A stretch of DNA of 64,000 nt from Escherichia coli (lineage in GTDB: Bacteria; Pseudomonadota; Gammaproteobacteria; Enterobacterales; Enterobacteriaceae): the NCBI RefSeq assembly GCF_016026235.1, contig NZ_CP065613.1; one strand, written 5' to 3'. Numbering within the stretch: position 1 is the first letter of the stretch; each line of letters opens with the position of its first letter. Made by a program: the position numbers and the translations under genes. The notes beneath the pieces were generated by a model. The model saw nothing but the letters and a program-made list of their open reading frames with translations, had not been told where the DNA came from and made no database searches. Below are positions 14,550 through 64,000 of this stretch, piece by piece.

Positions 14550-14635
14550 TCCAGGCCGGATAAGGCGTTCACGCCGCATCCGGCAATCGAGCACAATGCC
14601 TGATGCGACGCTGCCGCGTCTTATCAGACCTACGA
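14550..14635. repeat. REP (repetitive extragenic palindromic) elements
   Basis: gccggataaggcgttcacgccgcatccggc and gcctgatgcgacgctgccgcgtcttatcag palindromic units. Confidence 0.6.
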
Positions 14636-25529: not shown

Positions 25530-25750
25530 ACCTGATGTGGCGAAAACGCCTTATCCGCCTACAAACGCATGAAGATTCAACATGTTGCAATAGATTTTGT
25601 AGGCCTGATAAGCGTAGCGCATCAGGCATTGAGCACCTAATGCCGGATGCGGCGTGAACGCCTTATCCGGCCTACAAACGCACGAAGATTCAACATGTTG
25701 CAATAGATTTTGTAGGCCTGATGAGCGTAACGCATCAGGCAATTCTACTT
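25530..25750. repeat. BIME-type cluster: tandemly duplicated unit of about 105 bp containing REP palindromes
   Basis: two near-identical copies of gccttatccg...caaacgca.gaagattcaacatgttgcaatagattttgtaggcctgat.agcgta.cgcatcaggca. Confidence 0.7.
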
Positions 25751-31450: not shown

Positions 31451-31554
31451 GCTTTTTACGCCTCAAACTTTCGTTTTCGGGCATTTCGTCCAGACTTAAG
31501 TTCACAACACCTCACCGGAGCCTGCTCCGGTGAGTTCATATAAAGGAGGAACGT

Positions 31555-58319: not shown

Positions 58320-58560
58320 TGGTTACCAGAATCAGGGCAGTCTTAGGAGTGGCGGCATATAGCCAAAATAACGTGAGCGGGTCCATGCCCGACAGAATCG
58401 TTACTCTCTCCCATCCGGACTCTAACCGTCGGCCCCGGAATTACACCGGATCTGCTGTCCTTTGAGTTCGCACCCAAAGCGCTCGCGGGCTTTCAACTGA
58501 GTTGATTTACCGCCGGTGGGGAATTTCGCCCCGCCCTGAGAATAAGCGGATTCACTATAA
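58320..58560 (-). promoter_or_regulatory. FMN riboswitch (RFN element) in the ribB leader
   Basis: long structured 5' leader; minus-strand sequence contains ggggccgacggttagagtccggatgggagag, matching conserved RFN core segments; boundaries approximate. Confidence 0.6.
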
Positions 58561-60127: not shown

Positions 60128-61789
60128 ATGGATGATATTGTTAATTCTGTGCCCTCCTGGATGTTTACCGCGATTATTGCCGTATGCATTCTGTTTATTA
60201 TTGGAATTATTTTCGCCAGGCTCTATCGTCGCGCTTCAGCAGAGCAAGCATTTGTCCGTACCGGCTTAGGGGGGCAAAAAGTGGTAATGAGCGGTGGCGC
60301 AATCGTGATGCCGATCTTTCATGAAATAATCCCCATCAATATGAATACTCTGAAGCTGGAAGTCAGCCGCTCAACCATTGATAGCCTGATTACGAAAGAT
60401 CGTATGCGCGTCGATGTAGTAGTCGCTTTCTTTGTGCGGGTAAAACCTTCAGTAGAAGGGATTGCCACCGCTGCCCAGACGCTGGGGCAACGCACCCTGT
60501 CGCCTGAAGACTTACGTATGTTGGTTGAAGATAAATTTGTCGATGCCCTCCGTGCAACAGCTGCGCAAATGACCATGCATGAGTTACAGGATACCCGCGA
60601 GAACTTCGTGCAGGGAGTACAAAATACCGTAGCTGAAGATCTGTCGAAAAACGGCCTGGAACTGGAAAGCGTTTCACTTACCAACTTTAACCAGACCTCG
60701 AAAGAACATTTCAATCCGAACAATGCCTTTGACGCCGAAGGTTTAACCAAACTGACTCAGGAGACGGAGCGCCGTCGCCGCGAGCGTAACGAAGTTGAAC
60801 AGGATGTAGAAGTTGCGGTGCGTGAGAAAAACCGTGATGCACTTTCGCGCAAGTTGGAGATTGAACAACAAGAAGCGTTTATGACGCTTGAGCAGGAGCA
60901 GCAAGTTAAAACCCGTACCGCTGAACAAAATGCGAAAATTGCTGCTTTTGAAGCTGAACGTCGTCGTGAAGCAGAGCAGACGCGAATTCTGGCTGAACGA
61001 CAGATTCAGGAAACAGAAATCGACCGCGAACAGGCCGTCCGCTCAAGAAAAGTTGAAGCTGAACGTGAAGTTCGCATTAAAGAGATCGAACAGCAGCAGG
61101 TCACCGAAATCGCTAACCAGACGAAATCGATCGCTATTGCCGCCAAATCGGAACAACAGTCCCAGGCAGAAGCGCGTGCTAACCTTGCACTCGCAGAAGC
61201 AGTAAGCGCCCAACAAAACGTAGAAACCACTCGCCAGACAGCCGAAGCCGATCGTGCCAAGCAGGTGGCGCTGATTGCCGCAGCACAGGATGCAGAAACC
61301 AAAGCGGTTGAACTGACCGTGCGGGCGAAAGCAGAAAAAGAAGCCGCAGAGATGCAGGCGGCGGCGATCGTTGAGTTAGCCGAAGCTACGCGTAAAAAAG
61401 GCCTGGCGGAAGCAGAAGCACAACGTGCGCTGAACGATGCTATCAACGTACTTTCTGACGAACAAACCAGCCTTAAATTCAAACTGGCCTTGTTGCAGGC
61501 GCTACCTGCGGTAATAGAGAAATCCGTGGAACCAATGAAGTCCATTGACGGTATCAAGATTATTCAGGTCGATGGTCTGAATCGTGGTGGTACTGCGGGG
61601 GATGCAAACACGGGTAATGTGGGGGGCGGAAACCTGGCGGAACAAGCATTATCAGCCGCACTCTCTTACCGCACACAGGCACCACTGATTGACTCCTTGC
61701 TCAATGAAATTGGCGTTTCAGGCGGCTCACTGGCTGCATTGACTTCACCCTTAACCTCAACAACTCCCGTCGCCGAAAACGTAGAATAA
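60128..61789 (+). CDS. yqiK: SPFH/band-7 (flotillin-like) protein with long coiled-coil
   Basis: 553 aa. Confidence 0.85.
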   Translation: MDDIVNSVPSWMFTAIIAVCILFIIGIIFARLYRRASAEQAFVRTGLGGQKVVMSGGAIVMPIFHEIIPINMNTLKLEVSRSTIDSLITKDRMRVDVVVAFFVRVKPSVEGIATAAQTLGQRTLSPEDLRMLVEDKFVDALRATAAQMTMHELQDTRENFVQGVQNTVAEDLSKNGLELESVSLTNFNQTSKEHFNPNNAFDAEGLTKLTQETERRRRERNEVEQDVEVAVREKNRDALSRKLEIEQQEAFMTLEQEQQVKTRTAEQNAKIAAFEAERRREAEQTRILAERQIQETEIDREQAVRSRKVEAEREVRIKEIEQQQVTEIANQTKSIAIAAKSEQQSQAEARANLALAEAVSAQQNVETTRQTAEADRAKQVALIAAAQDAETKAVELTVRAKAEKEAAEMQAAAIVELAEATRKKGLAEAEAQRALNDAINVLSDEQTSLKFKLALLQALPAVIEKSVEPMKSIDGIKIIQVDGLNRGGTAGDANTGNVGGGNLAEQALSAALSYRTQAPLIDSLLNEIGVSGGSLAALTSPLTSTTPVAENVE

Positions 61790-61974
61790 ATTTTCAGCTA
61801 TGAACATCCCTGGCCCAAAAAGCCGAGGATTTTTTATATCTGCGTTCCGATAAAAAGTGCAAATGATCGGGCTGTTGCAGCATTTTGCGTGACCGCTCGG
61901 GGAAGGCAAAACTACCTCAGGGAAAGCGTTGCGCGGGGTCCGGCGCTCATCAACAATCGGGGAGTCAGCAAGGG

Positions 61975-62114
61975 GCTGAAACGGGAAAGCCCCTCCCGAA
62001 GAAGGGGCCTTGTATAAGGAAAGGGTTATGATGAAGCTCGTCATCATACTGATTGTGTTGTTACTCGTAAGTTTCGCAGCTTATTAACAGCCAATCAGAG
62101 GGGGGAGAAATCCT
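61975..62114 (-). ncRNA. sibD: SibD antitoxin sRNA body (antisense to ibsD), separated from its promoter by the IS insertion
   Basis: sequence homologous to the intact second copy; boundaries inferred. Confidence 0.4.
62028..62087 (+). CDS. ibsD: type I toxin peptide Ibs (19 aa, MMKLVIILIVLLLVSFAAY)
   Basis: direct translation; hydrophobic 19-mer. Confidence 0.8.
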   Translation: MMKLVIILIVLLLVSFAAY

Positions 62115-63407
62115 CTGAGGGATCCCCAGAAAATTTAGTAAACCATTATCATATTGGTATACCGTTGCTGTAGAACTTTCAGCCCTGCGTCAAATGACAG
62201 TGTGTTTAGTATGAGTGGAGAATGTCGAATCACATTCTCCGCCAGTTTTAATAACGAGATGACTCGCCTGTGCTTCACTGTATTTGCCTGATATTTATGA
62301 TGTATCCCTTTGTTTTCCAGGCTGAAACCGCTTAACCACATAATGATACTGGCTAATGTTGCGATCAGACTCAATACCGTGACCCGCCCGGATGAATGAC
62401 TGGCACCAAACCGTAGTCCAAATCCCCAGCGAGGATTTTTTTCATCCCTGAAATTTTGCTCAATTTGCATTCTACGGCTGTATAATTTCATTACCTGTTT
62501 TGGCGAGAACTCAGTACTGTTTGTGAAAATAAACCATGGTGATTTCCCGGCAGTACGAGCTTTAGCCGTCACCGATGGTCTGGTTGCTCTTTCCTTCGAG
62601 CGTTTAAATCTACGACCTTTAGGCTTACTTTTATAAAGATAAAAATGCCCTTCATGTTGTGCATTTTTATCTCGACCCAGCAGGCCTTCACCTAAATAAA
62701 TTGCTGTCGTTGATGCTTTTGTGCCTGAGTCCGACACCTTTTCCCAGCCATTACCAACATTGTAATAATGATTGCCCAGTACCCGGCAAATATAGGTCCA
62801 GCCACGGGAGCGGAGCTGTTGGAACCATCGCCCCTGAAAACCGGCATCTGTAATAACAATGACATCAGTCCCGGGGGAAAAGCACTCAGCAAGCGATTCC
62901 AGAAAACGCTCATGTACATCTGCATTCGCTGTCTGTGATGATGGAACGACACAACTCATCAACGGTAAAGAACGCCCGTCACATGCCAGGCTTGCCCGCA
63001 AAAGCTGAAAACGAGAGGCATGATAAGCACTCCAGTCAATGAGTATCACAACACGAGACATTCCCGCGTAATCTTTTGGGTAATTCGCTGAAAAATGGTG
63101 GAAACCTCATTTTGCAAATGTCGATTCCCCAACAGTCGATCCACCCGCTTTATTTTGTTTTTAACTGATGCCGTACCGGTTAAATGACGCCCGATACTGG
63201 TAAGTGTGAGGGAAGCGCCATTTATTACAGCATTAGTTGCGTCAATCAGTGATTTTTGACGGTAAAGATGCAAAGGGGCCAGTATATTGTTAAGGAAATT
63301 TTGGCATAATGAACGTGCAGGCATAGTGGTGATCTCCTTGAAATTGTTAGCACAATCAATTAGATCACATCTCACTATGCCTGTCTTGTTTTCTGGGGAT
63401 TCCTCAG
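62115..63407 (-). mobile_element. IS4-family, IS10-like insertion sequence (1293 bp)
   Basis: 19-bp imperfect terminal inverted repeats ctgagggatccccagaaaa / ctgaggaatccccagaaaa; flanked by direct repeats gagaaatcct (9-10 bp target-site duplication) that are single-copy in the second ibs/sib repeat. Confidence 0.8.
62135..63324 (-). CDS. IS10-like DDE transposase, encoded in two overlapping frames (possible frameshift near 63046-63061)
   Basis: N-terminal part (MPARSLCQ...NRHLQNE) and C-terminal part (VILIDWS...LYSRRMQIEQNFRDEK) both align by eye to IS10 transposase; reading frame changes between ITRE and SRVVIL. Confidence 0.7.
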
Positions 63408-63436
63408 GAGAAATCCTCCCTTACCCTTGTTCCTTT

Positions 63437-63465
63437 ACTTTAGGTTGAAAAAAAATCAGCGTCAA
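63437..63465 (-). promoter_or_regulatory. predicted sibD promoter (TTGACG-17 bp-TAAAGT), now directed into the IS right end
   Basis: hexamers read on the minus strand; equivalent TTGACG-17-TAGAGT at 63813-63841 in the second copy. Confidence 0.45.
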
Positions 63466-63654
63466 GAAGGTTTCATTAACACATATCCCTAGCCCAAAAA
63501 GCCGGGGATTTTTTATATCTGCGTTCCGCTAAAAGGTGCAAATGCTCAGGACGTTGCAGCGTTTTGCGTGACCGCTCGGGGAAGGCAAAACTGCTTCAGG
63601 GAAAGCGTTGCGCGGGGTCCGGCGCTCATCAACAATCGGGGAGTCAGCAAGGGG

Positions 63655-63805
63655 CTGAAACGGGAAAGCCCCTCCCGAGGAAGGGGCCTTATAGAAGGAA
63701 AGGGTTATGATGAAGCTCGTCATCATACTGGTTGTGTTGTTACTGTTAAGTTTCCCGACTTACTAACAACTGATCAGAGGGGGGAGAAATCCTCCCTTAC
63801 CCTTG
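63655..63805 (-). ncRNA. sibE: SibE antitoxin sRNA (antisense to ibsE)
   Basis: predicted promoter at 63813-63841 and a hairpin plus U-rich tract near 63655-63690 on the minus strand; boundaries approximate. Confidence 0.45.
63707..63766 (+). CDS. ibsE: type I toxin peptide Ibs (19 aa, MMKLVIILVVLLLLSFPTY)
   Basis: direct translation. Confidence 0.8.
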   Translation: MMKLVIILVVLLLLSFPTY

Positions 63806-63885
63806 TTCCTTTACTCTAGGTTGAAAAAACAACAGCGTCAATAGGCCTGCCATGTACGAAGCGAGATCTGTGAACCGCTTTCCGG

Positions 63886-64000
63886 TTAGCCTTTTTTATC
63901 CTGTTGGATCTTCTTGATAATGTTAGTGGTCGAGCAACCGTCTTCAAAGTTGAGCACCAACACTTCGCCGCCGTTGGCCCAGACTTCTTTACTCCCGGCG
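63886..64000 (-). CDS. hldE: 3' end (partial, runs off window) of bifunctional heptose kinase/adenylyltransferase
   Basis: minus-strand translation ends ...[28 protein letters not shown]-stop. Confidence 0.7.

What the first reader, a model, noticed from the sequence alone, without database searches (positions are those of the whole stretch)
61800..63850. Two ibs/sib type I toxin-antitoxin repeat units
Two units of about 340 bp with about 90 percent identity each encode a 19-aa hydrophobic Ibs peptide (ibsD, ibsE) with an antisense Sib RNA. This arrangement is known; it is listed because the first unit is the IS target and the peptides differ at four positions.
Basis: established knowledge. 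Interest (0 to 1): 0.3.

Follow-up and report, generated by a model that had tools for sequence, protein, structure and literature searches.

The report
Known ibs/sib toxin-antitoxin pair, IS-split antitoxin
These are the well-known tandem sibD/ibsD and sibE/ibsE small-toxin/antisense-RNA loci of E. coli; the only twist is that a mobile element (ISEc60) has landed in a hairpin of the first antitoxin RNA gene, a spot that this element and IS186 hit repeatedly in other strains.

Summary
Between yqiK and hldE lie two 378-bp repeat units, not about 340 bp. They are 89.8% identical once the insertion is removed. Each unit carries a 19-codon ibs ORF whose nucleotide sequence is identical to K-12 ibsD or ibsE, and the two peptides differ at 4 residues. 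Each unit also carries an antisense Sib RNA gene (Rfam RF00113: 81.7 and 140.9 bits).

Unit 1 is interrupted by a 1293-bp ISEc60 (IS4 family) with a 10-bp target duplication, GAGAAATCCT. The closest genome, FDAARGOS_943, has the empty site (1079/1081 identical).

The IS is not in the toxin. It splits sibD at Sib nt +23, in the 5' hairpin. This separates the promoter and first 23 nt from the part that pairs with ibsD, and it also removes the last ~12 nt of the ibsD mRNA. The ibsD ORF, Shine-Dalgarno sequence and promoter are untouched.

ISEc60 prefers g|GGGAWWWCCC|c quasi-palindromes. A matrix built only from non-sib sites ranks the two sib hairpins 3rd and 4th of 62,680 window positions. The same hairpin is hit in sibE and in an ibsA-adjacent unit, in both orientations, and by IS186/IS421 in 17 genomes.

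How ibsD stays silent without an intact sibD is inferred, not shown. Ordinary, known biology; modest interest.

The parts
61785..62114 (.). Repeat unit 1, left arm (330 bp), from just before the yqiK stop codon to the IS
   Evidence: Direct-repeat family D1. Alignment to K-12 unit D. Empty-site comparison.
61806..61835 (+). Hairpin plus T6 that opens unit 1 (terminator-like, just after yqiK). It carries the private SNP 61826 G>A, which weakens it.
   Evidence: Sequence. Predicted fold is -8.8 kcal/mol versus -15.4 for the G allele. SNP relative to FDAARGOS_943. The allele is absent from 5426 genomes.
61929..61957 (+). ibsD promoter-like site TTGCGC-17-AACAAT. The inferred ibsD mRNA start is at 61964.
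   Evidence: Motif position. The start is placed by the 5' end built into the T7-ibsD primer of Han et al. 2010 (PMC2943612). Inference by homology.
62028..62087 (+). ibsD ORF, 19 codons plus stop: MMKLVIILIVLLLVSFAAY. Intact.
   Evidence: Nucleotide-identical to K-12 ibsD. Identical peptide in other genomes, with the Pfam PF13956 hit.
61984..62114 (-). sibD 3' portion (Sib nt about +14 to +145). It is antisense to the ibsD Shine-Dalgarno sequence and ORF, contains the TRD1/TRD2 equivalents and the terminator hairpin (62011-61986), and is now cut off from its promoter.
   Evidence: Rfam hit 62013-62152, 81.7 bits. Coordinates transferred from the K-12 sibD annotation. Hairpin fold. TRD mapping from PMC2943612.
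62105..62114 (.). Target-site duplication, left copy: GAGAAATCCT
62115..63407 (-). ISEc60 (IS4 family), 1293 bp, with ends CTGAGG[G/A]ATCCCCAGAAAA (18/19 inverted repeat)
   Evidence: 99.8% identical to annotated ISEc60 copies. Ends. The 10-bp TSD model was fixed by other copies.
62135..63324 (-). ISEc60 transposase, a pseudogene in this copy. A 1-nt deletion in a G4 run (window 63064-63066) splits the 396-aa ORF into 92 aa plus 308 aa.
   Evidence: Pfam DDE_Tnp_1 on the intact protein.
63408..63417 (.). Target-site duplication, right copy: GAGAAATCCT
63408..63430 (-). sibD 5' fragment (Sib nt +1 to +23), still attached to its promoter and now reading into the IS
   Evidence: The +1 position comes from the K-12 annotation and from the SP6-SibD primer of PMC2943612. 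Sequence.
63437..63465 (-). sibD promoter TTGACG-17-TAAAGT
   Evidence: Promoter scan. The autonomous 35-bp sibD promoter is described in PMC12956327.
63464..63841 (.). Repeat unit 2 (378 bp), intact sibE/ibsE
63485..63514 (+). Hairpin plus T6 that opens unit 2. It carries the private SNP 63491 G>A, which weakens it.
   Evidence: Predicted fold is -9.4 kcal/mol versus -15.3 for the G allele. SNP. Allele absent elsewhere.
63608..63636 (+). ibsE promoter-like site TTGCGC-17-AACAAT. The inferred start is at 63643.
   Evidence: Inference by homology.
63707..63766 (+). ibsE ORF, 19 codons plus stop: MMKLVIILVVLLLLSFPTY
63663..63806 (-). sibE antitoxin RNA gene, intact
   Evidence: Rfam 140.9 bits. 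Coordinates transferred from K-12 sibE.
63813..63841 (-). sibE promoter TTGACG-17-TAGAGT

Best explanation
Shown: the region is the tandem sibD/ibsD - sibE/ibsE type I toxin-antitoxin locus of an IS-rich E. coli/Shigella-type chromosome. Each 378-bp unit encodes a 19-aa hydrophobic Ibs toxin on the + strand. On the - strand it encodes a roughly 145-nt Sib RNA that is fully complementary to the toxin's ribosome-binding site and ORF. Unit 2 (sibE/ibsE) is intact.

Shown: unit 1 received a 1293-bp ISEc60 by ordinary transposition, with a 10-bp duplication GAGAAATCCT. The target is the top of the Sib 5' hairpin (Sib nt +14 to +23), which is also the 3'-terminal hairpin of the ibsD mRNA. The site was hit because ISEc60, like IS186, prefers g|GGGAWWWCCC|c quasi-palindromes, and this hairpin is one of the best such sites in the region.

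Shown: the ibsD ORF, Shine-Dalgarno sequence and promoter are unchanged. The sibD promoter plus 23 nt now point into the IS on the transposase sense strand. The part of sibD that recognises ibsD (nt +14 to the 3' end, including the TRD1 and TRD2 equivalents and the terminator) lies directly behind the transposase stop codon, with no convincing intrinsic terminator in between.

Inferred (about 40%): ibsD is still held down by a long read-through RNA. This RNA would start at PsibD or at an IS promoter, run through the IS, and end at the native Sib terminator.

Inferred alternative (about 45%, rival 1): the orphaned ibsD is simply tolerated.
For: Identity of the locus:
- Rfam SIB_RNA hits.
- ORFs nucleotide-identical to K-12 ibsD and ibsE, with synteny yqiK-...-hldE.
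- Pfam Ibs_toxin hit on identical peptides.

Insertion:
- IS ends, TSD and 99.8% identity to ISEc60.
- FDAARGOS_943 is 99.9% identical over the 23.7-kb flank and has the empty site. It matches 1079/1081 after removing the IS and 10 bp, and sibD there scores 150.8 bits against 81.7 bits here.

Target preference:
- Ten non-sib sites give the consensus cgcgGGGATATCCCcgc.
- A matrix built without the sib sites ranks the two sib hairpins 3rd and 4th of 62,680 positions.

Recurrence:
- Same 10 bp in sibE of CFSAN029787, RMDEC364 and VL46.
- The homologous hairpin of an ibsA-adjacent unit in RMDEC332 and CFSAN029787, and in the opposite orientation in FDAARGOS_943.
- IS186/IS421 in the same hairpin in 17 genomes.

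Position in Sib:
- +1 and numbering come from the K-12 annotation and the Han primers.
- SibC nt 1-29 are dispensable, and TRD1 (+46-68) and TRD2 (+95-113) are sufficient (PMC2943612).

Read-through:
- PsibD is intact and is a strong, portable 35-bp promoter (PMC12956327).
- Only two weak 5-pair terminator-like sites lie on the minus strand inside the IS, a count at shuffle level.
Against: - No expression data, so nothing shows that any antisense RNA crosses the IS.
- The transposase frame is broken in this copy. Most of the IS RNA would therefore be untranslated and open to Rho-dependent termination.
- The same hairpin tolerates ISEc60 in the opposite orientation and IS421 with its transposase running against sib. 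Read-through in the sib direction therefore cannot be a general requirement.
- The outward promoter-like site at the IS end (62174..62145, 9 of 12 matches) is weak.
Confidence: 0.88

Rival explanations
1. The insertion has simply knocked out sibD. The orphan ibsD is tolerated because its native single-copy expression is too low to harm, and/or because the IS also removed the last ~12 nt and the 3' hairpin of the ibsD mRNA, which would change its termination and stability. On this view the unit is a decaying, functionally dead locus.
For: - The insertion lies 12 nt before the mapped ibsD mRNA 3' end (ibsD+163 primer) and destroys its -15.4 kcal/mol 3' hairpin.
- The same hairpin is interrupted in both orientations by two different ISs in more than 20 genomes, all with intact ibs ORFs. 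This argues that disruption is broadly tolerated whatever the IS transcribes.
- The lineage is IS-rich, with 38 ISEc60 places in FDAARGOS_943.
Against: - Leaky plasmid ibsC is lethal without chromosomal SibC (PMC2943612), so Ibs is potent.
- The ibsD promoter, Shine-Dalgarno sequence and ORF are unchanged relative to the empty site.
- A terminator-like 11-pair hairpin 100 nt inside the IS on the + strand (62215-62242) could give the ibsD mRNA a new stable 3' end.
Confidence: 0.45
2. The neighbouring intact SibE cross-represses ibsD, so losing sibD has no effect.
For: SibE is perfectly complementary to 36 contiguous nt of ibsD spanning the Shine-Dalgarno sequence, the start codon and 8 codons (alignment).
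Against: - Published co-transformation tests report that Sib RNAs repress only their cognate ibs, except for ibsA (PMC2943612).
- The TRD1 region differs at many positions between units D and E, and the TRD2 region at 2 positions.
Confidence: 0.08
3. The repeat or the IS junction is an assembly artefact, or the short ORFs are chance ORFs in a non-coding repeat.
For: Nothing specific. The ORFs are only 19 codons, and a one-base homopolymer difference in the IS could be a sequencing error.
Against: - There is a perfect 10-bp target duplication, and the empty site in the closest genome matches exactly.
- The same architecture occurs in independent assemblies.
- The ORFs are conserved and annotated across thousands of genomes, with a Pfam Ibs_toxin hit.
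Confidence: 0.02

Closest known systems
E. coli K-12 sibD/ibsD and sibE/ibsE (Ibs/Sib type I toxin-antitoxin family; Rfam RF00113, Pfam PF13956)
   Same: Same chromosomal position (yqiK-hldE). Same two-unit tandem with a spacing of about 376 bp. The ibs ORFs are nucleotide-identical. The sib promoters, hairpins and terminators are the same.
   Different: sibD is split by ISEc60 at Sib nt +23. In the TRD2-equivalent stretch just upstream of the Shine-Dalgarno sequence, unit D here reads GTATAAGG, which is the K-12 unit E variant, and unit E reads ATAGAAGG. There are two private SNPs in the unit-opening hairpins.
IS elements next to chromosomal hok/sok loci of E. coli K-12, e.g. IS186A beside hokC (Pedersen and Gerdes 1999; cited from my own knowledge)
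   Same: An IS4-type element is inserted in a G/C-clamped hairpin at the 3' side of a type I toxin gene and leaves the toxin ORF intact. ISEc60 occupies the very same 10-bp dnaJ-hokC target (GGGATCACTC) as K-12 IS186A. It also sits next to hokB.
   Different: Here the family is ibs/sib. Its antitoxin overlaps the whole toxin gene, so the IS cuts the antitoxin gene itself rather than flanking DNA.
IS186 target choice: G-run, 3-6 nt, C-run consensus (SaiSree et al. 2001, listed as a reference in PMC3045373; the consensus is quoted from memory)
   Same: ISEc60 targets g|GGGAWWWCCC|c with a 10-bp duplication. IS186/IS421 hits the sibD hairpin 1 bp away, with TSD GGAGAAATCC.
   Different: The two transposases are barely alignable, with only a 22-residue motif at E = 0.008. 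The ISEc60 ends themselves contain GGGATCCCC, which resembles its target.
IS10/IS50 protection against read-in transcription (fold-back sequestration of the transposase start; from my own knowledge)
   Same: An RNA starting at PsibD and entering the IS is predicted to fold at -47.2 kcal/mol (z = -4.8). A long stem pairs the transposase Shine-Dalgarno sequence and AUG with an upstream segment.
   Different: This is a prediction only and was not tested. This copy's transposase is frameshifted in any case.

Membership tests
Ibs/Sib type I toxin-antitoxin | Antisense RNA matching the Sib covariance model (Rfam RF00113) above the gathering score of 56 bits | tested here: met
   Unit 2 scores 140.9 bits. 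Unit 1 scores 81.7 bits, with its 5' third replaced by IS sequence. The uninterrupted sibD of the closest genome scores 150.8 bits.
Ibs/Sib type I toxin-antitoxin | An 18-19-codon hydrophobic ORF on the opposite strand, lying wholly inside the Sib gene and preceded by a Shine-Dalgarno sequence | tested here: met
   ORFs at 62028-62087 and 63707-63766, each preceded by AAGGAAAGGG. Both lie within the sib coordinates transferred from K-12.
Ibs/Sib type I toxin-antitoxin | Peptide belongs to Pfam Ibs_toxin (PF13956) | tested here: met
   The peptides are too short for the scanning tool's 20-residue minimum. However, identical 19-aa products at the same position in 8 other genomes carry the precomputed PF13956 hit. 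RefSeq names them Ibs family toxins.
Ibs/Sib type I toxin-antitoxin | Orthologous position and sequence relative to the experimentally characterised K-12 sibD/E loci | tested here: met
   The yqiK-hldE intergenic position is shared. The ORFs are nucleotide-identical to K-12, and mean column identity of the six-unit alignment (including K-12 units D and E) is 90%.
Ibs/Sib type I toxin-antitoxin | Complete antitoxin transcription unit: promoter, full Sib body and terminator, contiguous | tested here: not met
   Met for unit 2. Not met for unit 1, where the promoter plus nt +1 to +23 (63408-63465) are separated from the rest (61984-62114) by 1293 bp of IS. Unit 1 is therefore a member by descent with a disrupted antitoxin gene.
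Ibs/Sib type I toxin-antitoxin | Ibs is toxic when expressed, and the cognate Sib represses it | not testable with these tools
   Shown for the K-12 homologues (PMC2943612; PMC4147584). Not measured for this strain.
ISEc60 (IS4 family insertion sequence) | DDE transposase of the IS4 type (Pfam DDE_Tnp_1) | tested here: met
   The intact 396-aa protein carries PF01609. The window copy is the same gene with a 1-nt deletion.
ISEc60 (IS4 family insertion sequence) | Near-identity to copies annotated as ISEc60, terminal inverted repeats, and a flanking target duplication | tested here: met
   99.8% identity over the full length to many annotated copies. 18/19 inverted repeats. A 10-bp duplication here and at 10 other sites.

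The most novel reading that the evidence does not exclude
The Sib 5' hairpin, which is also the ibs mRNA 3' hairpin, is a natural landing pad for palindrome-seeking IS4-type elements (ISEc60, IS186/IS421). The resulting alleles are natural antitoxin-promoter knock-outs that keep an intact toxin gene. If the toxin stays silent only because IS-borne or read-through transcription now supplies the antisense RNA, then the IS transcript has become the antitoxin, and silencing or losing the IS transcript would be selected against. That would be a form of IS 'addiction' through a chromosomal type I toxin. The two private hairpin-weakening SNPs that flank unit 1 could be adjustments to the new transcription pattern.
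Probability: 0.12. Interest if true: 0.5.

Novelty: already known. Interest (0 to 1): 0.22.

Why it matters
As a genome feature this is textbook. The tandem sibD/E-ibsD/E modules were characterised in K-12, and IS insertions beside chromosomal type I toxins are known from the hok loci. What the follow-up adds is modest but concrete.

- A defined target preference for the little-studied ISEc60: a 10-bp duplication at G3-A/T-rich-C3 quasi-palindromes.
- ISEc60 shares exact target sites with the unrelated IS186.
- The Sib 5' hairpin is a recurrent IS hot spot. It is hit in sibD, sibE and an ibsA-adjacent unit, by two ISs, in both orientations.

These natural alleles separate an intact ibs toxin gene from its cognate antitoxin promoter. 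That is a genotype hard to build in the laboratory because the two genes overlap completely. It could be used to ask whether chromosomal Ibs toxins are dangerous at native expression.

Tried and rejected
1. First IS model: 1291 bp with a 12-bp duplication GGAGAAATCCTC. I rejected it. The ampH-iprA copy only fits an IS of CTGAG...CTCAG with a 10-bp duplication, and all other copies agree.

2. Idea that the IS orientation in sib is forced, with the transposase co-directional with sib so that antisense transcription survives. Three events agreed, but a synthetic opposite-orientation junction query found ISEc60 reversed in the same 10 bp of the ibsA-adjacent unit of FDAARGOS_943. IS421 in sibD also runs against sib. 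Rejected as a rule.

3. Idea that the L4F change in ibsE of the EIEC strains with sibE::ISEc60 compensates for antitoxin loss. The allele is common, at >=99% identity in 1234 genomes. Rejected.

4. The 48-aa ORFs in the conserved upstream part of both units (61885-62031, 63564-63710). One-base indels in the K-12 units break the frame. Judged not coding.

5. Cross-protection by SibE. Unlikely on the published specificity data.

6. Scans for the junction or the IS end found nothing: species-representative genomes and JGI metagenomes gave 0 matches. Look-ups of the frameshifted 308-aa ORF and of a 395-aa mis-trimmed transposase were also not on record.

7. Fozo et al. 2008 (PMC2597788) and SaiSree et al. 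2001 (PMC95536) are not held in the library. Statements taken from them are marked as second-hand or from memory.

8. No paper in the library links ISEc60 or IS186 with sib/ibs.
Full report
**What is in the sequence**

Reading 61000-64000 and the repeat search show a 300-nt direct repeat, 61785-62084 and 63464-63763, at 90% identity without gaps. A second 59-nt repeat lies at 63407-63465 and 63783-841 of the 63-kb region, i.e. 63783-63841. A 32-nt inverted pair sits at 62102-62133 and 63389-63420 and brackets about 1.3 kb.

Rfam finds SIB_RNA (RF00113) twice on the minus strand. The hit at 63692-63841 scores 140.9 bits. The hit at 62013-62152 scores 81.7 bits, and its 5' third is aligned at low confidence to what turns out to be IS sequence.

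The two short ORFs are at 62028-62087 and 63707-63766. They encode MMKLVIILIVLLLVSFAAY and MMKLVIILVVLLLLSFPTY, which differ by 7 nt and 4 residues. My first two translations were one base out of frame and should be ignored.

**Identity**

The flanking genes are yqiK (60128-61789) and hldE, as in E. coli K-12, where sibD/ibsD and sibE/ibsE are annotated between them. Aligned to the K-12 units, window unit 1 is the D unit and unit 2 is the E unit. Both ibs ORFs are nucleotide-identical to K-12.

After removing the insertion, both units are 378 bp and 89.8% identical.

It fails to refute:
- In 8 further genomes that carry the same YqiK protein, the same 19-codon ORFs sit at the same offsets, and their products carry the Pfam Ibs_toxin hit.
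- A 90-nt ibsE segment is present in 5006 of 5426 complete E. coli genomes.
- Some genomes have only one unit at this locus (L026, L030), so copy number is polymorphic.

**The insertion**

The 1.3-kb insert is ISEc60, an IS4-family element. It is 99.8% identical to many copies annotated under that name. Its transposase is a DDE_Tnp_1 protein of 396 aa.

Comparison with other copies fixes the element as 62115-63407, from CTGAG to CTCAG. It is 1293 bp here and 1294 bp elsewhere, with 18/19 terminal inverted repeats and a 10-bp target duplication, here GAGAAATCCT.

The window copy differs from an EIEC copy by two substitutions and by one missing G in a G4 run. The deletion breaks the transposase into 92-aa and 308-aa ORFs.

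The flanking 23.7 kb is 99.9% identical to E. coli FDAARGOS_943. That genome has the empty site, with both units intact. With the IS and one 10-bp copy removed, the window matches it at 1079 of 1081 positions, and its sibD scores 150.8 bits in Rfam. The insertion is therefore real, recent and clean.

**Where exactly it landed**

I placed Sib +1 using the K-12 annotation and the primer sequences of Han et al. 2010, which encode the mapped 5' end of SibD and the ends of the 163-nt ibsD mRNA (PMC2943612). This gives:
- SibD starts at window 63430 on the minus strand.
- Its promoter TTGACG-17-TAAAGT is at 63465..63437.
- The duplicated 10 bp are Sib nt +14 to +23, the top of the 5' hairpin.

The toxin ORF is not touched; the insertion point is 27 nt past its stop codon. 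What is cut is the antitoxin gene. The promoter plus 23 nt remain at 63408-63465 and now read into the IS on the transposase sense strand. The rest of sibD (62114 down to 61984), with the regions equivalent to TRD1 and TRD2 and the terminator hairpin, lies immediately behind the transposase stop codon (62135).

The same hairpin is the 3'-terminal stem-loop of the ibsD mRNA, predicted at -15.4 kcal/mol in the intact unit. That mRNA therefore loses its last ~12 nt and its native end.

The ibsD promoter-like element (61929-61957), the inferred start (61964), the Shine-Dalgarno sequence and the ORF are unchanged relative to the empty site.

**Why this site**

I collected ISEc60 junctions from annotated E. 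coli genomes and from contigs encoding the exact transposase. Ten non-sib sites give the target g|GGGAWWWCCC|c. This is a G/C-clamped, A/T-cored quasi-palindrome that resembles the element's own ends (GGGATCCCC).

A symmetrised weight matrix built from those ten sites, with no sib site included, ranks the sibD and sibE hairpins joint 3rd and 4th among 62,680 positions of the window.

The site is hit repeatedly:
- The same 10 bp in sibE of CFSAN029787, RMDEC364 and VL46.
- The homologous hairpin (GGGGAAACCC) of an 18-codon ibs unit next to ibsA in RMDEC332 and CFSAN029787.
- That same 10 bp in FDAARGOS_943, in the opposite orientation.

The ampH-iprA site is also used in both orientations in two strains.

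The preference looks like that reported for IS186 (quoted from memory), and the overlap is literal:
- ISEc60 in one assembly occupies the very same dnaJ-hokC target (GGGATCACTC) that holds IS186A in K-12.
- A synthetic 'ibsD flank plus IS186 end' query finds 17 E. coli genomes with IS186/IS421 in an ibs/sib unit.
- In strain 600029, IS186/IS421 is in sibD with duplication GGAGAAATCC, one base from the ISEc60 site.
- The two transposases share only a 22-residue motif.

The specific sibD::ISEc60 allele of the window was not found in any of the 5426 E. coli genomes.

**How it works, and what the insertion does**

For unit 2 the published mechanism applies. Sib is made constitutively and pairs with the ibs mRNA through TRD1 (in the ORF) and TRD2 (at the initiation region). 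This blocks translation and probably triggers RNase III cleavage (PMC2943612; PMC4147584).

For unit 1 the consequences are inferred. Points in favour of a surviving antisense function:
- SibC nt 1-29 are dispensable, and either TRD suffices. The retained portion starts at +14.
- PsibD is a strong, self-sufficient 35-bp promoter (PMC12956327) and is intact.
- On the minus strand inside the IS there are only two weak 5-pair terminator-like sites, no more than in shuffled sequence.
- A weak outward promoter-like site lies at 62174..62145.

Points against:
- There are no expression data.
- The frameshift leaves most of the IS RNA untranslated and so exposed to Rho.
- Insertions in the opposite orientation and by IS421 are evidently viable too. 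The simplest common explanation is that disruption of this hairpin is tolerated, perhaps because the ibs mRNA 3' end is damaged at the same stroke.

I put the hybrid-antitoxin reading at about 40%, the tolerated-orphan reading at about 45%, and cross-protection by SibE below 10%, given the published cognate specificity.

An RNA entering the IS from PsibD is predicted to fold strongly (-47.2 kcal/mol, z = -4.8). The fold pairs the transposase Shine-Dalgarno sequence and AUG with an upstream segment. This is the kind of read-in protection known from IS10 and IS50 (from my own knowledge).

**Comparison and verdict**

This is a member of the Ibs/Sib family by every feature testable here. The one exception is that unit 1 no longer has a contiguous antitoxin gene. 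The IS is a member of ISEc60.

The closest precedents for the composite are the IS-flanked hok loci of K-12. Nothing here lies outside known kinds. The added value is a defined ISEc60 target preference, its coincidence with IS186 targets, and the recognition of the Sib 5' hairpin as a recurrent IS hot spot. No paper in the searchable library mentions this.

One unexplained detail remains. The only two differences from the empty-site relative are G>A changes at 61826 and 63491. Both lie in the paralogous hairpin-plus-T6 that opens each unit, both weaken it by about 6 kcal/mol, and neither is seen in any of 5426 genomes.

Interest is low to modest.

Noticed in passing
window 61826 and 63491: These are the only two differences from the empty site of the closest genome over 1081 bp. 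Both are G>A changes in the paralogous + strand hairpin-plus-T6 that opens each repeat unit (61806-61835, 63485-63514). Each lowers the predicted stability from about -15.4 to about -9 kcal/mol. Neither allele occurs in 5426 complete E. coli genomes. They could be coincidence, sequencing error or adjustment after the insertion; this is unresolved.
   Followed up: partly
L031 1388-2732 (K-12 IS186A) and L021 317-1611: IS186A of K-12 and ISEc60 of another assembly occupy the same 10-bp target GGGATCACTC between dnaJ and hokC, although their transposases are barely alignable.
   Followed up: yes
L032 1870-3208 (E. coli 600029); 17 genomes: IS186/IS421 is inserted in the Sib 5' hairpin of sibD (duplication GGAGAAATCC) and of other ibs/sib units in 17 complete E. 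coli genomes. The orientation in strain 600029 is opposite to that of ISEc60 in the window.
   Followed up: partly
L013/L014 (GCA_031665585.1) and L004 (FDAARGOS_943), next to hokB: ISEc60 is inserted in the hairpin GCGCGGGGATTTTCCCCGCGC just downstream of the hokB ORF. In one assembly two ISEc60 copies lie head-to-tail, separated by exactly 10 bp (GGGATTTACC). In FDAARGOS_943 the copy is itself broken by IS600 and IS1.
   Followed up: partly
window 62006-62013 and 63685-63692 versus K-12 (alignment A1, columns 229-236): In the stretch just upstream of the Shine-Dalgarno sequence, which corresponds to the TRD2 discriminator, the window's D unit reads GTATAAGG. That is the variant found in K-12 unit E. 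The window's E unit reads ATAGAAGG, and K-12 unit D reads ACAGAAGG. The discriminator sequences are therefore shuffled between paralogues in different strains.
   Followed up: no
L006 versus L003 (mdtA-ibsA region): CFSAN029787 and RMDEC332 both carry ISEc60 at the same hairpin of an 18-codon ibs unit next to ibsA. However, the unit upstream of the IS differs: the peptide is MMKLLIIVVLLVISFPAY versus MMKWIIIVVLLVISFPAY, and the upstream flank is different. This suggests an extra unit, or recombination between units.
   Followed up: partly
window 62215-62242 (+): A terminator-like hairpin with an 11-pair stem followed by CAGTTTTAAT lies inside the IS, on the strand antisense to the transposase, about 100 nt from the IS end. 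It would stop transcripts such as ibsD mRNA that read into the IS.
   Followed up: no
window 58399-58547 (-), 31453-31516 (+), 14554-14630 (+), 25602-25672 (-): Other Rfam hits in the window: an FMN riboswitch in the ribB region (120.9 bits), ES173 sRNA (99 bits) and two naRNA4/CssrE elements (84.8 and 68.1 bits).
   Followed up: no
L026, L030 (yqiK-hldE locus in other genomes): Some E. coli genomes carry a single ibs/sib unit (ibsE type) at this locus instead of two, so the tandem is copy-number polymorphic.
   Followed up: no
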